64,000 bases of DNA from Bacteroidales bacterium (GTDB lineage: Bacteria > Bacteroidota > Bacteroidia > Bacteroidales > UBA932). The position numbers and the translations under genes are program-made. This document shows positions 50,236 to 60,271 of this stretch, in pieces. Location of the stretch: the NCBI GenBank assembly GCA_017501525.1, contig JAFVWT010000011.1, positions 131,037 to 195,036 of the forward strand. Direction: 5' to 3'. The notes below the pieces were generated by a model, which saw only the letters and a program-made list of their open reading frames with translations, had not been told where the DNA came from and ran no database searches. Within the stretch, counting starts at the first letter, position 1, and every line of letters starts with the position of its first letter.

Positions 50236-50252
50236 TATTGAAAAAATCTATA

Positions 50253-51197
50253 ATGATGAATCTGAATACTCTGGAGTATATTGTGGCCTTGGATGCCCAT
50301 AGAAATTTTGTAAAAGCGGCTCAGTCATGTGGGGTTTCACAACCCACGCTCAGCACTATGATTAAAAATCTTGAGGCGGAGCTGGATGTTATGATATTCG
50401 ACAGGAACTCCCACCCTGTTCGCCCTACGATTATAGGAGAAAAAATAATTGCTCAGGCAAAGGTAACTTTGTCCAATGCTGCATATATAGAGGAACTGGC
50501 GGCATCTGAAAGGGGAATTGAGAGTGGCTCTTTAAATATAGGTATTATTCCTACTATTGCTCCATATCTTCTTCCCGGAATTTTCAGAGGTTTCAATGAG
50601 AAGCACCGTTCAATAAATCTTAAAGCCTCGGAAATCCGTACGAGTATAATTATTGAGCAGTTGAAAAAGGCCGATATTGATATTGGAATAATGGCAACTC
50701 CGTTGGGAATAGAGGGTTTTCTTGAAATTCCACTCTATTATGAGAAATTTCTCTTGTATGTATCACCTCAAGAGGCAATCAGTTCTTATTCTGAGATTCA
50801 TTCTGACAAGATCCCTTCTGACCATCTTTGGGTGTTGCAGGAGGGGCATTGTCTAAGGAATCAAGTTTTCAACTTTTGTCATAAGCAAAGTTCTTATTCT
50901 TCTGTCTATGAGGCAGGAAGCATTGATACACTAATAAAGATAGTTGATGCTAACGGCGGTTATACAGTTATCCCCGAACTTCATCTGCCGTTCTTGAGTG
51001 AAAAGCAGAGAGAAAATGTCCGTCCACTCCTTTCAGACGGTTCGAAGTTCTCGGCCCCTGTCAGGGAGGTATCATTAGTGATTCGGGAGGATTATATGCG
51101 TGAGCGCTTTATCAATATCCTTGCAGATAGTATAAAGGAGATTATCCCCGAGCAGATGCTTGACAGTCGTCTTAAGAAATTTGCTATAAAGATTTAG
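50253..51197 (+). CDS. oxyR: LysR family transcriptional regulator, OxyR-like
   Basis: LysR HTH (LEYIVALDAHRNFVKAAQSCGVSQPTLS) and the redox Cys context LQEGHCLRNQ as in OxyR. Divergent from a peroxiredoxin operon. Confidence 0.8.
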   Translation: MMNLNTLEYIVALDAHRNFVKAAQSCGVSQPTLSTMIKNLEAELDVMIFDRNSHPVRPTIIGEKIIAQAKVTLSNAAYIEELAASERGIESGSLNIGIIPTIAPYLLPGIFRGFNEKHRSINLKASEIRTSIIIEQLKKADIDIGIMATPLGIEGFLEIPLYYEKFLLYVSPQEAISSYSEIHSDKIPSDHLWVLQEGHCLRNQVFNFCHKQSSYSSVYEAGSIDTLIKIVDANGGYTVIPELHLPFLSEKQRENVRPLLSDGSKFSAPVREVSLVIREDYMRERFINILADSIKEIIPEQMLDSRLKKFAIKI

Positions 51198-54100
51198 GCG
51201 GAGGTGAATTGAGGATGGATGACGTTGTGAATAATATCAATATACTCTCGTAGAGGCACTACATAGGAAGTGAAAAGTGAGAGATTCTCTTCAAAAGGAG
51301 ATTCATTTACAAGGGTCTCACGAGTAATATCTCCATTTTCACAGACGTATGAAATAATGTTCATCAAGAACTCCTCCTGATCTGCATTGAGTTTGCATCC
51401 GGTTATAAGAGAATTGAATTTCTCTATCGCCTCTTTACGGTTTATACCTATGATGGAACGGATAAAGACGGCTACATTGGAGCCGCAAGGCATTCCGTTT
51501 GTAAATTTCTCATAGTCGCCTTTGCTGCCCAATTCTTCCCAAAGAATCCTTTCAAGTTCTTTGATGTCAGAGGAGCACAGCTGTTCCATTGAGTATATCT
51601 TTTTTAACACAGGGTGTTTCTTGTTTTGGGCAAGAAAATCTAAAATCTTCTGTTTGTATGTGACTCTTGAAATAATACCTGTGGTCTCTCCTTTATTAAT
51701 AACAATGTCTTCAATATCTACTTCGAAATCAGTAAGTTCCCTAACGAGAAACTTCATCAGTTCTCTCATCTGTATTCTGACATTTTCAAGCCATTGGAGA
51801 GAAGGATTCAGCCACGAGTTACTATTCATAATCTCTTTCAGTAAATCCATTTTCAGTTCCACTTCACGGATACTCGCTTTATAAAGCAAATGTTCTGAGG
51901 CAGTAATGATACTATTTATAGCATTGCTGGAATCTACCTCATTGTCAAGGGTTGAGAGTTCTATCAGGTGGACAAGGAAATCCAATCGTTTACCCTTCTC
52001 ATCTCCTTTTACTTTACTGATAATCGGAGCAATATCCTCTTTAAGCGTCATTACGTCCAGGGGTGATATGTATATCCAAGAAGATTCATCTTTAAACCTG
52101 CTGACACTCTCCCATTTATTTCTGACAGATATATGATTCTCATTGAGTTTTTGAACCTGCTCTTTCATAATCTCTTTCAGCTCATCGTGCAATCTCTTTG
52201 CAAAGGGTTGGTCCTGATAGATCTGGTGTTGGAGATGGGAGGCAATCTCAGCTCTTACTGAAAAGATTCTTTCAGTAAGTGAAGCTGTGCTTTGAGGCTC
52301 GCAAGTCGAGCGGTCCACCTCGAAATACTCAAGGTTGCAGCACCAATCAAATACAAAGAATCTCTCTTTATCTTTATTCCCGAAAATTCCCGGAGACAAG
52401 CGTGTCCCTCTACCAATCATCTGAGTAAATTTGATTTTACTTCTAACAGGCTTAAAAATAACAAGGTTTAAAATATCAGGAACATCGATACCTGTATCGA
52501 GCATATCTACAGAAATCGCTATCTGTAACCCAGAATCTCTATTTGAAAATTTGTCAATATAATCCTGAGCGTATGGATTCTGATTGTCAATCACCTCACA
52601 CAATCCATCATAATTGGGATATAGAATATCAAACCTCTTTTTGATAATCATCGCGTGTTCGTGTCTTTGGGCAAAAATAATCGTCTTGCCGATAAGTTCC
52701 CCACACTGTACTTTGAGGCCATGGGTCATAAGGTCTTGCAACACTTTATCGACCGTATCTATGTTATTGATATAGGTAAACATCTCACTCGAGTAGAAAT
52801 CTCGATATGACTGGTCGGTATAAAGTGCAGGTTTCCAATTCATTTTCTTCTCGTAATCCCATATCTTCTCGAGTTGTTTCTTGTCGTGGGAAGAAAGCTC
52901 AGAATACTTTATACCATTGCTCAGGATATAAGAGCCCCTTTTGTAACCAGTGTAATTTACAAGATAACCGTCAGTTACAGCATCTTGAAGTTCGTAGGCA
53001 TAATTGGGGGCGCCCTGCTCCATCTCAAAAAGGTCGTATGTAGACTTGTCAATATCCTCTCTTGGAGTAGCGGTCAATCCGATGAGCAGCGCATCAAAAT
53101 AGTTGAAAATCGCTCCATATTTACCAAAAATAGATCGGTGCGCCTCATCTACAATAATCAAGTCAAATCTTCCCACAGAGAACCCTTTTTCATCTGTGTC
53201 AATAAGATTGATCATTGTCTGATAAGTGGAGAAAACAATTCTGGCACTCAAATCCTTGGTGCTGTTGTCATTCAAAACACAAGTGGTCTCCCCTGGTAGA
53301 AGTTTTACAAAATTCTTATGAGCCTGTGTCACTAGAGAGTTCCTGTCGGCAAGGAAAAGGATGTTTTTAATCCAAGAATTTCTTTTTAGAACCTCAACCA
53401 AAGAGATAGAGACCCTCGTTTTACCGGTACCAGTGGCCATAACGAGCAGCGCTTTGCGGCGCATAGAATTAAAGTGTTCACATACAGTTTTAATCGCCAT
53501 CTTCTGATAATATCTGTCTGTGATATTATCATTGACAGTTATATCTGAAATTTTAGGACGCCCCTGTTTTTGCATCATTCTCTCCAAGTCTCCCTCGGTA
53601 TGGAAACTATAAATCTTTCGGGGAGGGTAACCTAATCTGTCTATAATATATGTCTGGAAACCATTGGTATAATAGATAACAGGCCTTACTCCATATTCGG
53701 CCTCTAGACAATCAGCATAGAGTTCCGCCTGATGTTTCCCCCTCTCTGCTGAAACGGAAGTTTTCTTGGCTTCAATAACAGCTAGAGGTTTTCCATTTCT
53801 GCCAAAAAGGACATAATCAGCAAATCCCACATCTTTAGCATTTGGCATTCCGTGCAATTCGATCTCGATACAAGCCTTAGATGGTTCAATAAGTCTGTTG
53901 GTTTGAAGGATATCCCAATGGGCCTCTTTCAACATCAAATCGATATACATCCTGCGGGTCTCTGCCTCAGAGATAGAACTTTGTAGAGAGGTTACAGGAG
54001 CAGGAGACTCAATGGTGCTCCTTTTGGCTACTTTTCCAAGGTCATCAGAACTTCCGCAATTGCTTTGAGTGGAAGGGATAAAGATGTTGTTCTCAGCTTT

Positions 54101-54520
54101 ATTTGGAATAAGTTCTTTGTCAAAAGGATTAATGTCGTCAACGACCTGAAGTTTCAAAAGGATAGCCGCAATGACATTATAAATATTCAGCAAGCAGAAA
54201 AACGACTCTTTTTTCGAAACACAGCCTGTGTGAGCTGCACGGTTACCCATCTTTCGGACATAATGGGCGGACATTAAAATTTTATCATTACCGATAAATT
54301 CTGAAAAAGGCTCTCCGTCAATAAGTTCCAAAAGAGATGTCCTTTCGGAAATCTCGACATTTTTCAAATTGTATAACTCGCGGATGATATGCTCCAAAGC
54401 CCTTCTGGCATTGATGGCACTCATATCGGGGTCACATTGTTGATATTCCTCCGCAGCACGGCAAAACCTATACAAATATTCAAGCCCCTGAATAGAGGCC
54501 AAGTAATCGAAATTCCTCAT
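51194..54520 (-). CDS. hsdR: Type I restriction endonuclease subunit R with N-terminal DUF4145-like domain
   Basis: PD-(D/E)xK context FADYVLFGRNGKPLAVIEAKK, Walker A MATGTGKT, the DEAH box IIVDEAHRS and helicase motif VI QMIGRGTR. The C-terminus is EcoEI_R_C-like. Confidence 0.9.
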   Translation of the reverse strand: MRNFDYLASIQGLEYLYRFCRAAEEYQQCDPDMSAINARRALEHIIRELYNLKNVEISERTSLLELIDGEPFSEFIGNDKILMSAHYVRKMGNRAAHTGCVSKKESFFCLLNIYNVIAAILLKLQVVDDINPFDKELIPNKAENNIFIPSTQSNCGSSDDLGKVAKRSTIESPAPVTSLQSSISEAETRRMYIDLMLKEAHWDILQTNRLIEPSKACIEIELHGMPNAKDVGFADYVLFGRNGKPLAVIEAKKTSVSAERGKHQAELYADCLEAEYGVRPVIYYTNGFQTYIIDRLGYPPRKIYSFHTEGDLERMMQKQGRPKISDITVNDNITDRYYQKMAIKTVCEHFNSMRRKALLVMATGTGKTRVSISLVEVLKRNSWIKNILFLADRNSLVTQAHKNFVKLLPGETTCVLNDNSTKDLSARIVFSTYQTMINLIDTDEKGFSVGRFDLIIVDEAHRSIFGKYGAIFNYFDALLIGLTATPREDIDKSTYDLFEMEQGAPNYAYELQDAVTDGYLVNYTGYKRGSYILSNGIKYSELSSHDKKQLEKIWDYEKKMNWKPALYTDQSYRDFYSSEMFTYINNIDTVDKVLQDLMTHGLKVQCGELIGKTIIFAQRHEHAMIIKKRFDILYPNYDGLCEVIDNQNPYAQDYIDKFSNRDSGLQIAISVDMLDTGIDVPDILNLVIFKPVRSKIKFTQMIGRGTRLSPGIFGNKDKERFFVFDWCCNLEYFEVDRSTCEPQSTASLTERIFSVRAEIASHLQHQIYQDQPFAKRLHDELKEIMKEQVQKLNENHISVRNKWESVSRFKDESSWIYISPLDVMTLKEDIAPIISKVKGDEKGKRLDFLVHLIELSTLDNEVDSSNAINSIITASEHLLYKASIREVELKMDLLKEIMNSNSWLNPSLQWLENVRIQMRELMKFLVRELTDFEVDIEDIVINKGETTGIISRVTYKQKILDFLAQNKKHPVLKKIYSMEQLCSSDIKELERILWEELGSKGDYEKFTNGMPCGSNVAVFIRSIIGINRKEAIEKFNSLITGCKLNADQEEFLMNIISYVCENGDITRETLVNESPFEENLSLFTSYVVPLREYIDIIHNVIHPQFTSA

Positions 54521-54539
54521 AAATAAACTTACTCCTTGC

Positions 54540-54570
54540 TTTCGACAAATTTAATGAAAATTTGTCGAAA
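54540..54570. promoter_or_regulatory. perfect 13-bp inverted repeat between hsdS and hsdR
   Basis: tttcgacaaattt-aatga-aaatttgtcgaaa. The left arm contains the putative hsdR -7 box. Confidence 0.7.
54546..54553 (-). promoter_or_regulatory. possible separate -7 promoter box for hsdR
   Basis: Reverse complement reads TAAATTTG, 25 nt upstream of the hsdR ATG. An AAGGAG element lies between them. Confidence 0.4.
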
Positions 54571-54613
54571 ACAGGCCAAAGAACTACCCAAAGGAATCCG
54601 ATATGCCTACAGA

Positions 54614-55771
54614 TTAATTGAAATAGTAGTCCATCCTGCTGTTGAACAAGGTTTCTGTCTCCTTGATAGACTGGGCAATCAGTTCTTTCTGCTTCTCTAT
54701 TGATTCAATTTTGGATGCGAACTCTTGCTGTAAATCAAATGGTGGAACAAGCACTTTAAATCCTTGTATCAACTTTAGATTTAGTCCTCCTCTACCACCA
54801 TCCCCATTTGAAATATCCCTCAACTCATGGTAAAGGTAACGTAATTGATAATATAGAAAATCAACATTAACACCATCATTCGTGATGATAGAACAAATTG
54901 ATTGATTGGTACAAAGGGGTATTTCTGCAACTCCAACTGTTCCCCTCGTTTTACCTTGTCCTGCTAATGCCATCACAACAGTATGGGGAGGTATTAACTT
55001 GGTGCTCGCATTATCATATCCCTCTTGTGTAATATGTTTTTCTGTTGCATATATTCTACCATTGCCAACCTCACCAGAACTTAACCAAGGGATTGTACCT
55101 CCATCCCAATATTCCTTAACCTTTGTGCTTGGAGTAGCACCTGCTACGCATTTGGAAAAAGAACCTATTGTTTTTTGCTCCCACCCCTTGTCATTCTCTA
55201 CAGGGTCACCAAACATCTCATAGAAGATAGACTGTGCAAGATTATCCAGTTCTTTCAACTGCTGTTTCTTCTTCTCAATAATCCCCGAAAGACAATCAAG
55301 TTCAGCAACTATCTTTTTCTGTTCTGCGATTGGGGGAACGGGGATGGGAAGTGATTTTAACTCAGCACTATCTAATGTAGGGACGGCACCTCGTCTTGTA
55401 TAAAGTCTAAAATCTATGTTCTGTATAAACAAATACAAGTACTCGTAGTTAAGAGTGTAAGGATTAGATACACATATTATCCCAGTATTCAAGTCCACGA
55501 CACTTTCTCGTGTCAATATCCTCTTTTTGTTGGTTGCAATCGCAGCACCATTCTTCGGAAATACAATTGAATGCTTTGGGAAAGACTTACATCCATCTTT
55601 TAAAAACAGGGACGTGTGGTGAAGATATTTAGTATTTAACTCATGGTTCATGTCTGAAACTTTATAATATGGAACATCACCTACTCCTGAAAGTTCGTAA
55701 TCTTTCGGAGTATATCCACTCTTAAAAGTAACAATATCACCAAGTTTCTTTATTTCCCATCTTTGTTTCAT
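54614..55771 (-). CDS. hsdS: Type I restriction-modification specificity subunit
   Basis: Two target-recognition halves separated by conserved helices (PPIAEQKKIVAELD..., PPFDLQQEFASKIESIE...). 385 aa. Confidence 0.9.
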   Translation of the reverse strand: MKQRWEIKKLGDIVTFKSGYTPKDYELSGVGDVPYYKVSDMNHELNTKYLHHTSLFLKDGCKSFPKHSIVFPKNGAAIATNKKRILTRESVVDLNTGIICVSNPYTLNYEYLYLFIQNIDFRLYTRRGAVPTLDSAELKSLPIPVPPIAEQKKIVAELDCLSGIIEKKKQQLKELDNLAQSIFYEMFGDPVENDKGWEQKTIGSFSKCVAGATPSTKVKEYWDGGTIPWLSSGEVGNGRIYATEKHITQEGYDNASTKLIPPHTVVMALAGQGKTRGTVGVAEIPLCTNQSICSIITNDGVNVDFLYYQLRYLYHELRDISNGDGGRGGLNLKLIQGFKVLVPPFDLQQEFASKIESIEKQKELIAQSIKETETLFNSRMDYYFN

Positions 55772-55773
55772 AA

Positions 55774-56439
55774 TTATATCGTAGCTTTTAGACGTTCTTT
55801 AATAGTGTTTTTTAGAGACTCGGTCTTAAGAGTTTCAATTAGGGCATTGTATTTTAGGAGTGAGGTATTGAGGGATTCTAAATGGTAGATATCGTGGCAG
55901 GTATTTAATATCTTATTTATGAGTGTTCCCCGAGGAGTTGTGTTGTTGATACTTTCTAATGGTTGGTTAGAGTTTTGTATAAACCCTTCTTCGATATATG
56001 CTAGTATTAGTGAAAGAATATTTCTCGTCTGAATAATGAAATGGTAGTAATTTTTTATTTCCAGAGTCTTGTCGCAAATTTTGAGCTCTATGTCAAGTGA
56101 ACACTCCTCAATGGATAGTCCTAGCGCATTTACCTCAGATTGTATGTCTCTAATTAACTCTATTTTTTTGTCTTTTTGATTTGTATAGAGTAGGCTAATT
56201 GCAATTTTGACAAAAATCGTATCAGTGAAGGACTCTATTTGGAGAAGGTATTTATATATTCTTCTATATGTGTCGTATTCCTGAATCTTTGTTTGCTGTT
56301 CCTGTATTTTATTTTGTCTTTTCCCCAATATGTAGGTAATGACAGCTGCAACTACAGTAGCAAAGAATGTTATTCCAACACTCCACCAATCTGGAGCTTT
56401 TAGTGCCTCAATAAGTTCGATTAGCTGCAAGTCATTCAT
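55774..56439 (-). CDS. hypothetical single-pass membrane protein embedded in the hsd operon
   Basis: 221 aa with one TM helix (WWSVGITFFATVVAAVITYILG); the rest is predicted helical. No family recognised. Visibly AT-rich. Confidence 0.5.
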   Translation of the reverse strand: MNDLQLIELIEALKAPDWWSVGITFFATVVAAVITYILGKRQNKIQEQQTKIQEYDTYRRIYKYLLQIESFTDTIFVKIAISLLYTNQKDKKIELIRDIQSEVNALGLSIEECSLDIELKICDKTLEIKNYYHFIIQTRNILSLILAYIEEGFIQNSNQPLESINNTTPRGTLINKILNTCHDIYHLESLNTSLLKYNALIETLKTESLKNTIKERLKATI

Positions 56440-56447
56440 ACACCGTT

Positions 56448-57854
56448 TTATTTATTTTCGTTAATAATCCATTTTCCCCTCTTGCGTCCACCTTCGCGTG
56501 TTAGTATTCCATTTGCTTTTAATCTTTTGATGTGCCAATTAATACCATTGATAGAAATTCCTATAATTTCAGAGAGCTCCTGACGAGATATGTGTGGGTT
56601 GTTTATGATAAGTTCAATAATCTTTGTGGTAGTTTTTGTGGTAGTTTTTGTGGTAGTTTTTGTGGTAGTTCTATCATTAACGGTTACCAGAAAAACAGTA
56701 AGTTTACTAACATCGAAAACAGCTTTGTTATTTCCATTTTCTTGGAGTTCTTCTTGTACCATTGTGATTCCACGATTGAACTTGTTTACATATCCTAGTA
56801 CTCTTAGTGCTTCTGCGATAATAGGATTCCTGTAATCGTTTACGAATGGGAAATTCTCGGGGCGGGCATTGCCATAAAGACCTCCGGCATTTGTTATTTC
56901 TAATCGGTCAATATACTGATATAATTTAATAGGAGTGTTTGTTTTATAATCCCGATGCATTAAGGCATTCATTACCAATTCTCTGATAGCCCATTTGGGG
57001 TAGTTTCTTACAGTCTTTTCTCTTAAATTGCTAATAGGGACAGGACGAGCTATTATTAATGAATCCTCAATAAAAGCGTCGATACGAGGAAGCAATGTCA
57101 TTAAATTGCCCTCAAACACTTTTTCGTTTAGAATGGAGGATGCGTTGTTTGTCCCTCCAAAATTTACATATTGTATATAGTTACCGAATAAGAAATATTT
57201 TGGATTCTTTCCGAATAGTATTATTGCTGCGTATGTTGGACAGTCGTAAGTTAAATTATAGAGTCTGAGAGAGGCCATTTGTTCTTTAATGTTGCGCTTG
57301 TCCCCAATAAGAACATCTTCGTTAATCGCTTTGGGTAGATATTCATTTACGAAGAGTTTGGTGTCAATGTCGTTAAGTGTTGCTTCTAAGCAAGGCGTGG
57401 TATCAAAAGTGTTGAAGTTTACACTTCTTCGTTCTACAAGCATATTTTCCTCCTGGGTGGTAGCTTTGTCCTTTCTTGGACCTATACGGATGTATGTTCT
57501 TCCGTGGTAGCGGACAGGAGGGAACTCGGAAGGGAAAACCTCTACTATTAGAACATCTCCATCTTCATAAGAGATGTAATCAACATTCATTACGGGGAGA
57601 GGAAGAATGTTCCCTTCTGTGCGAATAGATGATATGTTTTTCAAAAGAGAATCTGTTACCTTTAATCCAGATCTTTTGCCATTGTCCTCTACACCAATTA
57701 ATAAATACCCAGGTTTCCTGGAATTAGGCATATCATTAGCAAAAGCACATATTGCCTCACAAAACTTATCTTTGTTGGATGTTGAAATAGTTTTTTCTAT
57801 ACGATAAGTTTCTGTACTATTTAGTAGTGCCTGTAGTTCCTCTTTTGTTATCAT
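56448..57854 (-). CDS. AlbA_2 (Schlafen-like) domain / HATPase_c_4-like / C-terminal winged-HTH protein
   Basis: N-terminus ...FCEAICAFANDMPNSRKPGYLLIGVEDNG is the AlbA_2 signature. The middle RELVMNALMHRDY...ITNAGG is a GHKL-like remnant. The C-terminal wHTH is ISRQELSEIIGISINGINWHIKRLKANGIL. A (TTTK)4 linker joins the domains. Confidence 0.75.
   Translation of the reverse strand: MITKEELQALLNSTETYRIEKTISTSNKDKFCEAICAFANDMPNSRKPGYLLIGVEDNGKRSGLKVTDSLLKNISSIRTEGNILPLPVMNVDYISYEDGDVLIVEVFPSEFPPVRYHGRTYIRIGPRKDKATTQEENMLVERRSVNFNTFDTTPCLEATLNDIDTKLFVNEYLPKAINEDVLIGDKRNIKEQMASLRLYNLTYDCPTYAAIILFGKNPKYFLFGNYIQYVNFGGTNNASSILNEKVFEGNLMTLLPRIDAFIEDSLIIARPVPISNLREKTVRNYPKWAIRELVMNALMHRDYKTNTPIKLYQYIDRLEITNAGGLYGNARPENFPFVNDYRNPIIAEALRVLGYVNKFNRGITMVQEELQENGNNKAVFDVSKLTVFLVTVNDRTTTKTTTKTTTKTTTKIIELIINNPHISRQELSEIIGISINGINWHIKRLKANGILTREGGRKRGKWIINENK
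56624..56671. repeat. perfect 4 x 12-bp tandem repeat inside a CDS
   Basis: tttgtggtagtt x4 on the plus strand, encoding TTTKTTTKTTTKTTTK on the minus strand. Confidence 0.95.
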
Positions 57855-57858
57855 AGGC

Positions 57859-59349
57859 TTAAACCATTTTCCTTAATTCGCACATTGCTTTTTGTATCTC
57901 GGATTCGAGTTCTTCGATACGCCTTAAAATCACATCGCTTTTTTCATATACGATTCTTTCACGTTCTACCTCTTTATATTTGTTGATAGAGAGGTCGTAT
58001 CCTTTTTCTCGAATCTCTTTTACGGGAACGAGGAATGATTGGTCTTTTCGGGTTCTGTTATTTTCTCCTGCAAGATTGTGGAAGCGGGTGATGATATCAG
58101 GAATGTCATTTTGAGGGATGGGATTTCTTCTGTCGTCAAGGGAGAATCCGTCTGTTTTCATATCGTAAAACCATACTTTGTCTGTTCCACCTGTATTGGT
58201 TTTGGTGAAGATAAGGATTGCGGTAGATACTCCTGCGTATGGTTTGAATACCCCTGACGGCATTGAAATAACTGCCTGTAGTCTCTGATTGTCAACGATT
58301 TCTTTTCTGATTGCCAAGTGCCCTGTACTTGTCCCGAAAAGGACTCCGTCAGGAACAATTGACGCACAACGGCCACCCGTTTGCAGCATCCTTACGAACA
58401 ATGCCATAAAAAGAAGTTCTGTCTTCTTGGTTTTGGTGATGGAAAGGATGGATTTGCTGACAGAATCATAATCAAGGCTGCCGGCAAATGGTGGATTTGC
58501 AAGACAAAGTGTGTATTTGTTTTCGTCTGTATTGTCGGTCGAGAGGCTGTCTTTGTATTCTACATCGGGATTGTCAACTCCGTGAAGCATAAGGTTCATT
58601 GCGCCTATGCGAAGCATTGTGCTGTCGGTATCAAATCCGTGCAGTAAACCATTTTTATAGTGGTTGGCATTATCTTTTTTGAGCAGTTCCGATTTGAATT
58701 TTTCTTGGATATATTTTGCACTTTCAACAATAAATCCGGCACTTCCCATTGCTGGGTCGCAGATGATGTCGTTGAGTTTTGGCTCCATCATTTCTACCAT
58801 CATCTTGATGATGTGGCGAGGGGTACGGAATTGCCCGTTGTTTCCCGAAGCAGCCATCTTGCCGAGGACATATTCATATACGTCGCCCATTGTGTCTTTG
58901 TTGTTCATATCGAGGCTATCGATGTTTTCTACAACTTTGACAAGTGTGCGTGGGTTTTGGATGAGGAAAGTGGCGTTTGCCATAAAGCGACTATAGGAAC
59001 TTTCTCTTCCGATGTTGAGGTTTTTGATAAAGGTGAAGGCGTCGCGGCTGATGATGCGATACATCTCTTCGGCATCTTTGTTTTTGAAAAAGCTCCATCT
59101 TAAAGATTGGTATGGTATTTCCTGGGTTGTTTCTGGGTTATGCCAGCAGCCATCCTTGAATGTGGGATCTTTTACAGCTACTCCCATCAATGATGCGTTT
59201 GCCTCTTTTGTGATTTGGGCATCATCGAGCATTTTGATAAAGAACAGGTAGGTCATCTGTTCCAAAATGGTGATGGAATTGGTGATGCCTCCTGTCCAGA
59301 ATGTATCCCAAATCGTGTCAATGCGACTTTTAATCTCTCCTGTTATCAT
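57859..59349 (-). CDS. hsdM: Type I restriction-modification N6-adenine DNA methyltransferase subunit
   Basis: HsdM_N-like N-terminus, SAM motif I ICDPAMGSAGF and catalytic motif IV LANPPFAG. Confidence 0.92.
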   Translation of the reverse strand: MITGEIKSRIDTIWDTFWTGGITNSITILEQMTYLFFIKMLDDAQITKEANASLMGVAVKDPTFKDGCWHNPETTQEIPYQSLRWSFFKNKDAEEMYRIISRDAFTFIKNLNIGRESSYSRFMANATFLIQNPRTLVKVVENIDSLDMNNKDTMGDVYEYVLGKMAASGNNGQFRTPRHIIKMMVEMMEPKLNDIICDPAMGSAGFIVESAKYIQEKFKSELLKKDNANHYKNGLLHGFDTDSTMLRIGAMNLMLHGVDNPDVEYKDSLSTDNTDENKYTLCLANPPFAGSLDYDSVSKSILSITKTKKTELLFMALFVRMLQTGGRCASIVPDGVLFGTSTGHLAIRKEIVDNQRLQAVISMPSGVFKPYAGVSTAILIFTKTNTGGTDKVWFYDMKTDGFSLDDRRNPIPQNDIPDIITRFHNLAGENNRTRKDQSFLVPVKEIREKGYDLSINKYKEVERERIVYEKSDVILRRIEELESEIQKAMCELRKMV

Positions 59350-59383
59350 TTGTTTGTATAAATGTTTTAAGGTTGTCGGTCGT

Positions 59384-60271
59384 TTAAGGTTTAACCCACT
59401 CGATTTTGGTCCCTTTGCGCTCCATGCCGCGGAACCAGGTCATCTGCCTTTTTGCAAATTGGTGGATTGCTATGGCGAGTTGTTCGCGCATCTGTTCAAA
59501 TGTGAGTTCTCCTATCAGATGGAGAGTTACAAATTTGTATTCAAGTCCGTAGTAGATAAGGTCTTCTGCCGGGATTCCTTTGTCGAGGAGAGATTGGACC
59601 TCCTCAATCATTCCCTCTTTAAGGCGGGCATCCAATCGTGCATCAATTCTGCGGACACGTTCCTCGCGGGAGACTTCTGTTCCTATATATAGTACCTCTT
59701 CCGGAAGAAATCGCGGGAACGATTCATCAAGAGAGTAGATACCTTCGTCTTCAGGGTGTTCCTGTTTGTAAAAGGCTATTTCCAAGGCTCTTATAAGCCT
59801 TTTGCGGGTGTCGTAATCGGTGGTGTTGTGGGTTTTGACCATACTTTTCAGCAGGTCAATCAACTCTTCTGTGGTACGTTGCTCAAGCTCTTCCCTGAGC
59901 TTTTGATTTTGTGGAACATCGGGAAGTTCATACCCTTTTGTTACCGCTTCTAAGTAGAGCCCTGAGCCTCCGCATAAGATCACTTTTTTCCCCCTTGATG
60001 TGATATCTTTATAAGCTGCAGCAAAGTCTCTCTGGTATCTGAATATGTTATATTTTTCCCCTGCATCTACGATGTCGATCAGATGATAGGGGATTTGTTC
60101 TCCGTCTATAGTATAATCTGCTATATCTTTGCCGGTGCCGATGTCCATTCCGCGATAGACCTGACGCGAGTCGGCAGAGATAATTTCTGCACCAATCTCT
60201 TTGGCGAGTCTTACCGCATATTTAGTTTTGCCCGAGGCTGTGGGGCCAAGTACGCAGATTAGTTTTATCAT
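59384..60271 (-). CDS. miaA: tRNA dimethylallyltransferase
   Basis: P-loop GPTASGKT and SADSRQVYRGMDIGTGK. Confidence 0.92.
   Translation of the reverse strand: MIKLICVLGPTASGKTKYAVRLAKEIGAEIISADSRQVYRGMDIGTGKDIADYTIDGEQIPYHLIDIVDAGEKYNIFRYQRDFAAAYKDITSRGKKVILCGGSGLYLEAVTKGYELPDVPQNQKLREELEQRTTEELIDLLKSMVKTHNTTDYDTRKRLIRALEIAFYKQEHPEDEGIYSLDESFPRFLPEEVLYIGTEVSREERVRRIDARLDARLKEGMIEEVQSLLDKGIPAEDLIYYGLEYKFVTLHLIGELTFEQMREQLAIAIHQFAKRQMTWFRGMERKGTKIEWVKP

What the first reader, a model, noticed from the sequence alone, without database searches (positions are those of the whole stretch)
55774..57854. Two translationally coupled non-RM genes embedded between hsdM and hsdS: candidate RM-coupled defence module
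What the sequence shows:
- The Type I operon reads hsdM, then gene X (468 aa), then gene Y (221 aa), then hsdS. The gaps are only 4, 8 and 2 nt, so X and Y are almost certainly co-transcribed and co-translated with the modification and specificity subunits.
- X combines an AlbA_2 domain (the nucleic-acid-binding domain shared with eukaryotic Schlafen proteins), a degenerate GHKL/HATPase_c_4-like region and a C-terminal winged HTH.
- Y has one N-terminal TM helix and an otherwise helical body, with no motif I can assign.
- Y is much more AT-rich than its neighbours. My hand counts of 60-nt samples gave about 30-33% GC in Y against about 47% in hsdM.

Established precedent: accessory abortive-infection or backup nucleases, such as PrrC in the EcoprrI hsd locus and RloC-type genes, occupy exactly this position.

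Inference: X (sensor or regulator) plus Y (membrane effector) may form a second-line anti-phage module that reads out the state of the RM complex. An alternative is that X is simply an operon regulator and Y is unrelated cargo.
Basis: partly seen in the sequence, partly recalled or inferred. Interest (0 to 1): 0.7.

Follow-up and report, generated by a model that had tools for sequence, protein, structure and literature searches.

The report
Two separate add-on genes inside restriction operon
A gut Bacteroidales type I restriction-modification operon carries two extra genes between hsdM and hsdS: a bacterial Schlafen-type protein of a known, defence-linked class, and a member of an undescribed family of small membrane proteins found only in this operon position. 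They are two independently swapped cassettes, not a fixed sensor-effector pair.

Summary
On the minus strand the order is hsdM, X (468 aa), Y (221 aa), hsdS, hsdR, with gaps of 4, 8 and 2 nt.

- **X** has an AlbA_2/Schlafen domain, a GHKL ATPase (HATPase_c_4) and a winged HTH. This is the "pSlfn-HisKinase-HTH" or "Schlatpase-HTH" class described in 2026 papers, which already report its association with R-M systems. Its ATPase motifs are invariant, not degenerate.
- **Y** is a single-pass membrane protein, predicted N-terminus out and C-terminus in. It has a conserved PDWW-TM segment, a Q-rich heptad stalk and a hypervariable helical C-terminal domain. It matches nothing in Pfam, NCBIfam, PADLOC, PHROGs, PDB or BFVD.
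- **Y family**: about 250 clusters. All genome hits are Bacteroidales MAGs. Every locus examined lies inside this type I operon lineage, nearly always abutting hsdS.
- **Y is optional.** Only 3 of 80 close HsdM relatives carry it.
- **Most Y operons lack X.** X relatives at 54-62% identity sit outside type I operons.
- **X and Y have different histories.** X is 98-100% identical (nt) to a MAG whose flanks are about 80% identical, while Y falls from 89% to 52%.

The sensor-plus-effector reading is only partly supported. Both genes are plausible embedded defence cargo. Y's function is unknown.

The parts
57859..59349 (-). hsdM, type I methyltransferase subunit (496 aa)
   Evidence: HsdM_N + N6_Mtase. 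PADLOC MTase_I E 8e-179.
56448..57854 (-). Gene X, 468 aa: prokaryotic Schlafen (AlbA_2), GHKL ATPase and winged HTH ('Schlatpase-HTH' / pSlfn-HisKinase-HTH)
   Evidence: Pfam. PADLOC SLFN-type pAgo N-terminal region, residues 25-411, E 3e-19. Foldseek hits 3lmm (E 3.6e-16), SLFN13 and SLFN11. More than 3,147 homologues.
57462..57809 (-). X Schlafen/AlbA_2 domain (residues 16-131), with E15-x4-E20, the CAFAN box (36-40) and D57
   Evidence: E15, E20 and C36-A37-F38-N40 are invariant; D57 is kept in 27 of 31. The canonical +2 Lys is replaced by invariant T22.
56688..56999 (-). X GHKL ATPase region (residues about 286-389; HATPase_c_4)
   Evidence: N-box and G-box residues are invariant in 31 homologues. 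Pfam PF13749.
56623..56670 (-). 12-nt tandem repeat x4 encoding the (TTTK)4 linker between the GHKL and wHTH domains
   Evidence: TRF: 4.0 copies, 100% match. Copy number is 4, 3 and 2 in otherwise identical or near-identical proteins (L008 identical, P0173 three substitutions). Homologues carry T/K/Q-rich repeat linkers of 23-95 aa.
56502..56636 (-). X C-terminal winged HTH (residues 407-451)
   Evidence: HTH_24 E 7e-13. MarR/ArsR fold hits.
55774..56439 (-). Gene Y, 221 aa: member of an undescribed single-pass membrane protein family restricted to this operon slot
   Evidence: No family hit. Family alignment A1. 252 representatives. Context in every locus examined.
56323..56385 (-). Y transmembrane helix (residues about 19-39), preceded by the conserved PDWW motif
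   Evidence: Hydropathy 2.15. W18 and W19 invariant. Flanking charge favours N-out/C-in in 98% of 102 members.
56254..56322 (-). Y juxtamembrane K/R patch and Q-rich heptad stalk, ending in the QEYxxYRxxY motif
   Evidence: Lowest column entropy in the family. 21-nt (heptad) repeat at 56278-56324. Stalk length varies from 5 to 48 aa in roughly heptad steps.
55777..56253 (-). Y hypervariable cytoplasmic helical domain (residues 63-221), with conserved D116, L119, K120, Y131, I177 and I213
   Evidence: AF2 helices. High column entropy apart from those residues. No fold match with E<0.1 in PDB or BFVD.
54614..55771 (-). hsdS specificity subunit (385 aa), starting 2 nt after the Y stop codon
   Evidence: Methylase_S x2. 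The Y-to-hsdS junction is -11 to +6 nt in 26 of 29 loci.
51194..54520 (-). hsdR (1108 aa), EcoAI/EcoEI-like, with an N-terminal DUF4145 domain
   Evidence: ResIII, EcoEI_R_C, HSDR_N and DUF4145. PADLOC REase_I E 7e-147. NCBIfam EcoAI-family hit below cut-off.

Best explanation
The hsdM-hsdS junction of this Bacteroidales (Rikenellaceae-like) EcoAI/EcoEI-like type I R-M operon is a cargo slot. Here it holds two independent accessory cassettes.

X is a self-contained prokaryotic Schlafen protein. By homology, ATP binding to its GHKL domain drives oligomerisation, which assembles the Schlafen nuclease (tRNA is the substrate in studied relatives). The C-terminal wHTH, on a flexible repeat linker, supplies nucleic-acid binding or gating. 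Its likely output is growth arrest of an infected cell.

Y is a separate single-pass inner-membrane protein, predicted N-out/C-in. A conserved PDWW-TM segment and Q-rich coiled-coil stalk form a constant membrane and oligomerisation module. A hypervariable cytoplasmic helical bundle forms the specific part. Y is made in step with HsdS (stop/start 2 nt apart here, overlapping in many relatives). Like the HsdS target-recognition domains, it is replaced by recombination between strains.

I take Y to be an optional anti-phage accessory whose variable domain recognises a phage- or RM-related partner at the membrane.

Shown: the anatomy, family membership of X, the distribution and context of Y, and the separate histories of X and Y.
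Inferred: every biochemical activity, and any defence phenotype.
For: Anatomy.

X class:
- Pfam and PADLOC hits.
- Fold hits to 3lmm, SLFN13 and SLFN11.
- Invariant E15/E20, CAFAN box and GHKL N- and G-boxes.
- Literature. 60,692 SLFN+GHKL 'Schlatpase' proteins are known, and most of the small ones carry a C-terminal HTH. [quoted passage not shown] SLFN+ATPase+DNA-binding clusters are tightly associated with R-M. pSlfn-HisKinase-HTH makes up 19.2% of pSlfns.

X autonomy: relatives at 54-62% identity are standalone, beside a type III-like R-M plus TIR, or in a SUKH/Fic island. A full-length PHROG hit also exists.

Y family: 252 representatives. All 14 genome hits are Bacteroidales MAGs. Every locus read lies within hsdM...hsdS. 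The junction with hsdS is tight in 26 of 29 loci.

Y optional: 3 of 80 close HsdM relatives carry it.

Y hypervariable and unlinked:
- Mean pairwise identity across 13 operons: HsdM 80%, HsdR 66.5%, HsdS 38.6%, Y 33%.
- Y divergence is uncorrelated with HsdM, HsdS or HsdR (rho about 0), whereas HsdM and HsdR co-vary (rho 0.85).
- L104 and L105 share 100% HsdM and the same X, but Y is 46% identical.
- In one gut metagenome, a contig at depth 14 replaces Y from about residue 20 onward together with hsdS TRD1 as one block.

Slot holds known defence genes in relatives: SoFic, PIN_8, AAA_21+RloB, AbiJ_NTD4.

X cassette recently exchanged: 98-100% nt identity against about 80% in the flanks.
Against: - No expression, phenotype or interaction data exist for either gene.
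- The pSlfn-HisKinase constructs tested in E. coli were not among the two that gave protection, so this architecture is not yet shown to defend.
- X departs from the canonical E(x)4(D/E)xK motif at the lysine position (invariant T22), so nuclease activity is uncertain.
- X in the hsdM-hsdS slot is found almost only in Y-bearing operons: 8 of 9 lineages with X there also have Y, and none of the Y-less HsdM relatives has X there. A one-way functional link from X to Y is therefore not excluded. That sample is biased by shared descent.
- Y's tight coupling to hsdS could instead mean that it works with the RM complex itself.
Confidence: 0.55

Rival explanations
1. X and Y form one two-gene module. 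X, through its wHTH and ATPase, senses infection or RM inhibition and activates Y, a membrane effector that kills or arrests the cell.
For: - X and Y are adjacent, or one gene apart, in 8 operon lineages: window, L001, L008, L009/11, L029, L103, L104-106, L110/111.
- X in the hsdM-hsdS slot is rare without Y. The one case, L102, instead has AbiJ_NTD4 plus an 85-aa TM protein.
- Other genes directly upstream of Y also combine an enzymatic domain with a wHTH (SoFic). Y could therefore be a common partner for such proteins.
Against: - About 12 Y-bearing lineages lack X in the slot, and five operons are just hsdM-Y-hsdS-hsdR.
- X relatives occur without Y in other contexts.
- Identical X pairs with Y alleles only 46-81% identical.
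- The X-to-Y spacing varies from 2 to 239 nt, while the Y-to-hsdS spacing is fixed.
- Schlafen domains are effectors in all studied relatives.
Confidence: 0.15
2. Y is an optional fourth component of the R-M enzyme itself. It would act as a membrane tether or assembly factor, holding the HsdM2S or HsdR2M2S complex at the inner membrane where foreign DNA enters, or controlling HsdS incorporation.
For: - Y is found only in this operon lineage and almost always abuts hsdS with overlapping or near-overlapping stop and start codons.
- Predicted topology places the large domain in the cytoplasm.
- A stalk of variable length looks like a spacer.
- From my own knowledge, not checked here: Holubova and colleagues (2000, 2004) reported membrane association of EcoKI-type enzymes.
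Against: - 77 of 80 close HsdM relatives (59-86% identity) have no Y, so the enzyme does not need it.
- Y divergence does not track HsdM, HsdS or HsdR.
- Identical Y occurs with unrelated TRDs: L014 and L024 have Y 100% identical and TRD1 25% identical.
- Y exists as 2-3 tandem paralogues in some operons, which is odd for a simple tether.
- No profile similarity to HsdS or to the HsdR DUF4145 domain.
Confidence: 0.2
3. X is simply a transcription factor for the operon (a controller-protein analogue) and Y is unrelated hitch-hiking cargo with no role in defence.
For: - X has a bona fide wHTH.
- The window lacks the small upstream genes (c74, or the HTH-like 107-aa protein) seen before hsdM in relatives.
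- Y has no recognisable catalytic or pore motif.
Against: - Most sister operons work without X.
- X relatives sit in non-RM contexts.
- The invariant nuclease-type and ATPase residues argue for enzymatic function.
- Y is conserved as a family with invariant residues, and its position is tightly fixed. That is not expected of neutral cargo.
Confidence: 0.07

Closest known systems
Prokaryotic Schlafen proteins of the HisKinase/GHKL-HTH architecture ('Schlatpase'; pSlfn-HisKinase-HTH). Sources: Taboada et al., Nat Microbiol 2026 (PMC13056530); bioRxiv 10.64898/2026.05.29.728809; Cash paper PMC13462974, cluster 7
   Same: X has the same three-domain order: AlbA_2/SLFN, then PF13749 GHKL, then a C-terminal HTH. 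It also has the Schlafen box, two invariant glutamates, intact GHKL motifs and an association with an R-M operon.
   Different: The lysine of the E(x)4(D/E)xK motif is replaced by an invariant threonine, with K/R one residue earlier. No member of this exact architecture has a published defence phenotype in the papers read. X sits inside the operon between hsdM and hsdS rather than beside it.
PrrC in the EcoprrI locus and the Campylobacter rlo (R-linked ORF) genes: accessory genes embedded in type I hsd operons
   Same: A non-RM gene is nested in a type I operon. Like PrrC, Y is found essentially only when embedded (Payne et al. note this for PrrC). Relatives of this operon carry AAA_21+RloB in the hsdS-hsdR slot.
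   Different: Neither X nor Y is homologous to PrrC or RloC (no PADLOC hit). From my own knowledge, PrrC lies between hsdS and hsdR. No evidence exists that X or Y is held latent by the RM complex.
TgvAB, a two-gene GmrSD-like system embedded in the Vibrio cholerae VPI-2 type I operon (PMC11411939), and the 'guilt-by-embedding' candidates of Payne et al. 2024
   Same: Two extra genes interrupt a type I operon. The embedded genes act independently of HsdR. Embedding is used as a predictor of defence function.
   Different: TgvA and TgvB are both required and act as a unit. X and Y do not co-vary and mostly occur apart. Neither X nor Y significantly matches a PDC or HEC model in PADLOC v2; the only PDC hit, PDC-S72 (E 1.3e-4), covers just the wHTH end of X.
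Csx28, the membrane accessory protein of type VI-B CRISPR (own knowledge: VanderWal et al., Science 2023). A functional analogy for Y only
   Same: A small protein with one N-terminal TM helix and a helical cytoplasmic domain, encoded inside a nucleic-acid-targeting defence operon.
   Different: No sequence or fold similarity was found. Y has no HEPN-like R-x-H motif among its conserved residues. The analogy is a lead, not a test.

Membership tests
Prokaryotic Schlafen (pSlfn) / SLFN_AlbA_2 | AlbA_2 (PF04326) domain with the Schlafen fold | tested here: met
   Pfam E 5.4e-18, above the gathering score. Foldseek hits to SLFN13 (5yd0, E 3.7e-4), SLFN11 (7fex, 7zep) and 2kyy.
Prokaryotic Schlafen (pSlfn) / SLFN_AlbA_2 | Nuclease motif E(x)4(D/E)xK plus the SAFAN 'Schlafen box' (as defined in bioRxiv 10.64898/2026.05.29.728809) | tested here: inconclusive
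   E15-x4-E20 is invariant, CAFAN (36-40) is invariant and D57 is kept in 27 of 31. The +2 Lys is an invariant Thr (T22), with K/R at +1. Activity cannot be judged from sequence.
Schlatpase supradomain (SLFN + GHKL ATPase PF13749) | GHKL/Bergerat ATPase following the SLFN domain, with intact ATP-binding motifs | tested here: met
   PF13749 E 7.7e-13. PADLOC SLFN-type pAgo N-terminal region covers residues 25-411, E 3.3e-19. N-box E292/N296 and G-box G324/G325/G328 are invariant.
Schlatpase supradomain (SLFN + GHKL ATPase PF13749) | ATP-dependent oligomerisation and tRNA cleavage | not testable with these tools
   Shown for RzAgo only. Needs biochemistry on X.
PrrC/RloC-type RM guardian | Homology to the PrrC/RloC ABC-ATPase plus anticodon-nuclease domain | tested here: not met
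   Neither X nor Y hits a PrrC or RloC model in PADLOC, Pfam or NCBIfam.
PrrC/RloC-type RM guardian | Kept latent by, and activated through, the cognate type I enzyme | not testable with these tools
   Would need co-purification and challenge with anti-restriction proteins.
Obligate two-gene embedded system (TgvAB-like) | The two genes co-occur and co-vary across genomes | tested here: not met
   Y occurs without X in about 12 lineages, and X relatives occur without Y. X is 98-100% identical where Y is 52-89%. X is identical where Y is 46%.
Core type I R-M subunit | Present in all close relatives of the enzyme and co-evolving with HsdM and HsdR | tested here: not met
   Y is in 3 of 80 HsdM relatives. 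Spearman rho of Y against HsdM, HsdS and HsdR is about 0, while HsdM against HsdR is 0.85.
Known membrane defence effectors or holin-like proteins | Sequence or fold match to a described family | tested here: not met
   Pfam hits are all below cut-off (E>=0.05). PADLOC gave 0 hits. Foldseek against PDB and BFVD gave nothing with E<0.1. The PDB profile search gave nothing below E 0.1.

The most novel reading that the evidence does not exclude
Y defines a new class of membrane-anchored component that is functionally tied to a type I R-M enzyme. It could be a PrrC-like guardian whose output is at the membrane, or a swappable tether that places the enzyme at the DNA entry site. Its variable cytoplasmic domain would diversify alongside the HsdS specificity domains as a second, exchangeable specificity determinant of the operon.
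Probability: 0.25. Interest if true: 0.7.

Novelty: new variant of a known kind. Interest (0 to 1): 0.45.

Why it matters
Accessory genes nested in restriction operons are now used as a way to discover new phage-defence systems.

X adds little. It is a further member of the most common bacterial Schlafen architecture, although that architecture still lacks a demonstrated phenotype.

Y is the useful part:
- It is a compact protein family that no database describes.
- It has been seen only inside one lineage of type I operons.
- It is co-translated with the specificity subunit.
- It is swapped between strains as often as the specificity domains themselves.

If Y acts with the enzyme, it would be the first membrane-bound partner of a type I system. 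It would also give a direct handle on the old question of whether these enzymes work at the membrane. If Y acts alone, it is a new small membrane defence gene from gut Bacteroidales, a group in which few defence systems have been tested.

Tried and rejected
- **Fold assignment of Y.** The AF2 model was good (pLDDT 81), but Foldseek against PDB and BFVD gave only generic helical bundles with E>0.1. No assignment was made.
- **Y against solved structures.** The profile search found nothing below E 0.1.
- **Y against the HsdR N-terminal DUF4145 domain and against HsdS.** hhalign probability was below 1% for both. Rejected.
- **Y on phages.** The viral-contig scan found none and there is no PHROG.
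- **Promoter and terminator scan of the operon.** Counts were within shuffle expectation and the tool does not model Bacteroidales promoters. Uninformative.
- **Invertible hsdS (shufflon).** No inverted repeats lie in 50900-59500. Rejected for this locus.
- **tRNA and Rfam scans of the window.** Nothing found.
- **Sequence-level alignment of X to mammalian SLFN.** A PDB profile search aimed at placing the catalytic residues returned no SLFN hit. Only the fold-level match is available.
- **Literature on membrane localisation of type I enzymes.** Not found in the held library. Makarova et al. 2011 is not held.
- **RNA evidence.** Only DNA metagenome runs hold the locus.
Full report
**1. What is in the sequence**

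Five minus-strand ORFs lie in series:
- hsdM, 59349..57859
- X, 57854..56448 (468 aa)
- Y, 56439..55774 (221 aa)
- hsdS, 55771..54614
- hsdR, 54520..51194

The gaps hsdM/X, X/Y and Y/hsdS are 4, 8 and 2 nt. A 93-nt gap precedes hsdR. HsdM, HsdS and HsdR are unambiguous. HsdR is EcoAI/EcoEI-like (EcoEI_R_C domain; NCBIfam EcoAI-family hit below cut-off) and carries an N-terminal DUF4145 domain.

Base composition: Y 34.1% GC, X 36.5%, hsdM 42.5%, window 40.6%. X and Y together fall in the lowest 0.7% of windows of that size.

The operon sits directly after miaA and smpB and ends against oxyR. The closest genome match is a Candidatus Coprenecus (Rikenellaceae) MAG with the same flanking genes. 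At least 20 gut-metagenome runs hold the locus.

**2. Gene X**

Pfam finds SLFN_AlbA_2 (residues 16-131), HATPase_c_4 (307-389) and HTH_24 (407-451). PADLOC aligns residues 25-411 to the N-terminal region of a pAgo model (E 3e-19).

The AF2 model has pLDDT 70, with confident domains joined by low-confidence linkers. Its Foldseek hits are:
- the uncharacterised full-length homologue 3lmm (E 3.6e-16)
- SLFN13 (E 3.7e-4)
- SLFN11 and SLFN12
- MarR/ArsR-type wHTH proteins for the C-terminus

In 31 homologues the following are invariant: E15 and E20; the Schlafen box C36-A37-F38-x-N40; the GHKL N-box (R291 E292 N296 A297 H300 D302 Y303); and the G-box (N322 G324 G325 G328). D57 is kept in 27 of 31. 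The ATPase is therefore intact, not degenerate.

One departure stands out. The lysine of the published E(x)4(D/E)xK motif is an invariant threonine here, with K/R one residue earlier.

The segment between the GHKL and wHTH domains is a low-complexity T/K/Q-rich repeat of 23-95 aa across homologues. In the window it is a perfect 12-nt x4 repeat encoding (TTTK)4. Otherwise identical or near-identical proteins carry 3 or 2 copies (L008 identical apart from the repeat, P0173 with three substitutions).

This architecture is already described:
- 60,692 of 103,533 prokaryotic Schlafen proteins carry the GHKL domain ("Schlatpase"). Most of the small ones end in an HTH.
- In the SLFN-pAgo RzAgo, the GHKL domain binds ATP and drives tetramerisation, and the SLFN domain cleaves tRNA.
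- Taboada et al. list pSlfn-HisKinase-HTH as 19.2% of pSlfns. Protection was shown for the DUF262-Slfn construct and one other of the seven tested; I did not read which, and the later preprint's mention of an Ig-like sensor suggests the Ig-like fusion.
- The Cash paper reports Schlafen-ATPase-DNA-binding proteins "tightly associated" with R-M.

X is thus a new member of a known class. Its specific activity is inferred.

**3. Gene Y**

Y has no significant hit in Pfam, NCBIfam, PADLOC or PHROGs. The word-indexed search found only 23 relatives in 5.8 billion proteins. The exhaustive profile search found 252 cluster representatives at E<=1e-3 and 162 at E<=1e-10, nearly all 205-260 aa.

The family shares three parts:
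- a short acidic N-terminus;
- a PDWW motif, one TM helix and a K/R patch;
- a Q-rich heptad stalk ending in QEYxxYRxxY.

The rest is variable and helical, with a few conserved positions: D116, L119, K120, Y131, I177 and I213.

In 98% of 102 members the charge after the helix exceeds the charge before it (+1.8 against -1.8). This predicts N-out/C-in, so the large domain is cytoplasmic. Stalk length varies from 5 to 48 aa with modes about one or two heptads apart. The window copy contains a 21-nt repeat in this region.

The AF2 model (pLDDT 81.4) is one long helix (16-84) followed by a helical bundle. No PDB or BFVD structure matches with E<0.1.

**4. Where Y lives**

All 14 hits in the species-representative genome collection are Bacteroidales MAGs: Alistipes, Coprenecus, Cryptobacteroides, Fimenecus, Tidjanibacter, Paludibacteraceae and Bacteroidaceae. 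None was found in viral contigs.

In every locus read, the Y-family gene lies downstream of hsdM in this same operon type. One of these, L017, is a decayed operon with a fragmented hsdM and no hsdS.

In 26 of 29 loci with a readable downstream gene, the last Y copy is followed by hsdS at -11 to +6 nt, often with a 4-nt overlap. The upstream gap ranges from -26 to 513 nt. Some operons carry two or three tandem Y paralogues.

**5. X and Y are not a unit**

- Y-bearing operons include minimal hsdM-Y-hsdS-hsdR forms (L014, L016, L020, L024, L061).
- In other Y-bearing operons the gene before Y is SoFic (Fic+wHTH; PADLOC E 1e-43), a weak HEPN-like 264-aa protein, or a small TM protein.
- The hsdS-hsdR interval is a second slot. 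It holds PIN_8, AAA_21+RloB, a 253-aa unknown or a 23S_rRNA_IVP-like protein.
- Among the 80 closest HsdM relatives in metagenomes (59-86% identity), only 3 carry Y. Most are plain hsdM-hsdS-hsdR or carry other cargo.
- X relatives at 54-62% identity are standalone, next to a type III-like R-M plus TIR, or in a SUKH/Fic island.

Histories differ as well:
- Against the Coprenecus MAG, the flanks are about 80% identical at nt level and X is 98-100%. Y falls from 89% to 52% along its length.
- L104 and L105 share 100% HsdM, 98% HsdR and the same X protein, but Y is 46% identical.
- Across 13 complete operons the mean pairwise identities are HsdM 80%, HsdR 66.5%, HsdS 38.6% and Y 33%.
- Y divergence does not correlate with HsdM, HsdS or HsdR (rho about 0), while HsdM and HsdR co-vary (rho 0.85; pairs are not independent).

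A population view agrees. In one metagenome the flanks have depth 17-20 but this Y/hsdS allele only 4-7. A contig at depth 14 replaces Y from about residue 20 onward plus hsdS TRD1 as one block. Other runs show TRD1-only, TRD2-only and Y-stalk variants.

One caveat favours a link. X in the hsdM-hsdS slot was seen almost only in Y-bearing operons (8 of 9 lineages), and in none of the Y-less HsdM relatives. That sample is shaped by shared descent and by how the loci were found. I therefore keep the pair hypothesis alive at low weight.

**6. Mechanism**

Best-supported reading: the hsdM-hsdS junction is a recombination-prone cargo slot.

X is an autonomous Schlafen module. By homology it would use ATP-driven oligomerisation to activate a nuclease, with a DNA-binding wHTH on a flexible repeat linker.

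Y is a separate membrane-anchored accessory with a constant membrane-and-stalk module and a fast-changing cytoplasmic domain. It is co-produced with HsdS and exchanged with it. The diversification pattern fits a protein in an arms race better than a housekeeping anchor, so I favour an optional anti-phage role. That step is inference.

A role as a membrane partner of the enzyme is the main rival. The tight hsdS coupling supports it. Its absence from 77 of 80 sister operons and the lack of co-variation argue against it.

**7. Novelty**

Embedded accessory genes in type I operons are a known phenomenon. Examples are PrrC, the rlo genes, TgvAB and the guilt-by-embedding screen. X is a new member of a known class. 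Y is an undescribed family with an unusually strict genomic address. Overall this is a new variant of a known kind, of moderate interest.

Noticed in passing
window 56623-56670 (within X): A perfect 12-nt x4 repeat encodes (TTTK)4. Copy number is 4, 3 and 2 in otherwise identical or near-identical X proteins from other samples (L008 identical, P0173 three substitutions). Homologues carry T/K/Q-rich repeat linkers of 23-95 aa. This is an in-frame, length-variable linker between the ATPase and the wHTH.
   Followed up: partly
window 56500-57900 versus L008 (Candidatus Coprenecus MAG): The X cassette is 98-100% identical at nt level, while the flanking housekeeping genes are about 80% identical and hsdM is mosaic (73-97%). 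This points to a very recent transfer of X between lineages by recombination.
   Followed up: yes
window 54650-56400; runs X1, X9, X15, X16: Assemblies of gut metagenomes break in the hsdS and Y region, and several alleles coexist. Replaced blocks include TRD1, TRD2, the Y C-terminal domain plus TRD1, and a Y stalk segment (56283-56369). This is population-level cassette variation without any inverted repeats.
   Followed up: partly
window 54200-54520 (HsdR residues 1-128): HsdR starts with a DUF4145 helical domain. It also matches PADLOC candidate PDC-M16A (E 2e-14). Its role in this HsdR type is unclear.
   Followed up: no
L010 4185-5336, L019 6532-7851, L021 2602-3921: In three Y-bearing relatives the gene between hsdM and Y is 383-439 aa. 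The L010 and L019 copies were scanned and are SoFic-type (Fic plus wHTH). Like X, this combines an enzymatic domain with a wHTH.
   Followed up: partly
L002-L005 7757-7996; L102 9325-9582; L110 4686-4931: Small (79-85 aa) single-TM proteins with an R/K-rich juxtamembrane stretch recur next to Y or in its place. They look like truncated Y N-terminal modules.
   Followed up: no
window 59350-59383 versus relatives L002, L009, L012, L021, L110: Many related operons have a conserved 74-aa gene (or, in L001, a 107-aa gene that looks HTH-like by eye) just upstream of hsdM, a possible controller. The window has none. Here hsdM starts 34 nt after miaA, so its promoter is unknown.
   Followed up: no
L017 6743-8666: This is a decayed operon. 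hsdM is split into three fragments and hsdS is missing, yet the 232-aa Y gene is intact.
   Followed up: no
window 51194-51197: The convergent oxyR-like LysR gene (50238-51197, + strand) and hsdR overlap by 4 nt at their 3' ends. No terminator-like site separates them.
   Followed up: no
run X16, joint 56645 to 59383: One contig joins the X linker repeat to the region just upstream of hsdM, skipping 2.7 kb, with 35 unrelated nt between. Only 25 nt lie on the short side. It may be a different locus or an assembly artefact.
   Followed up: no
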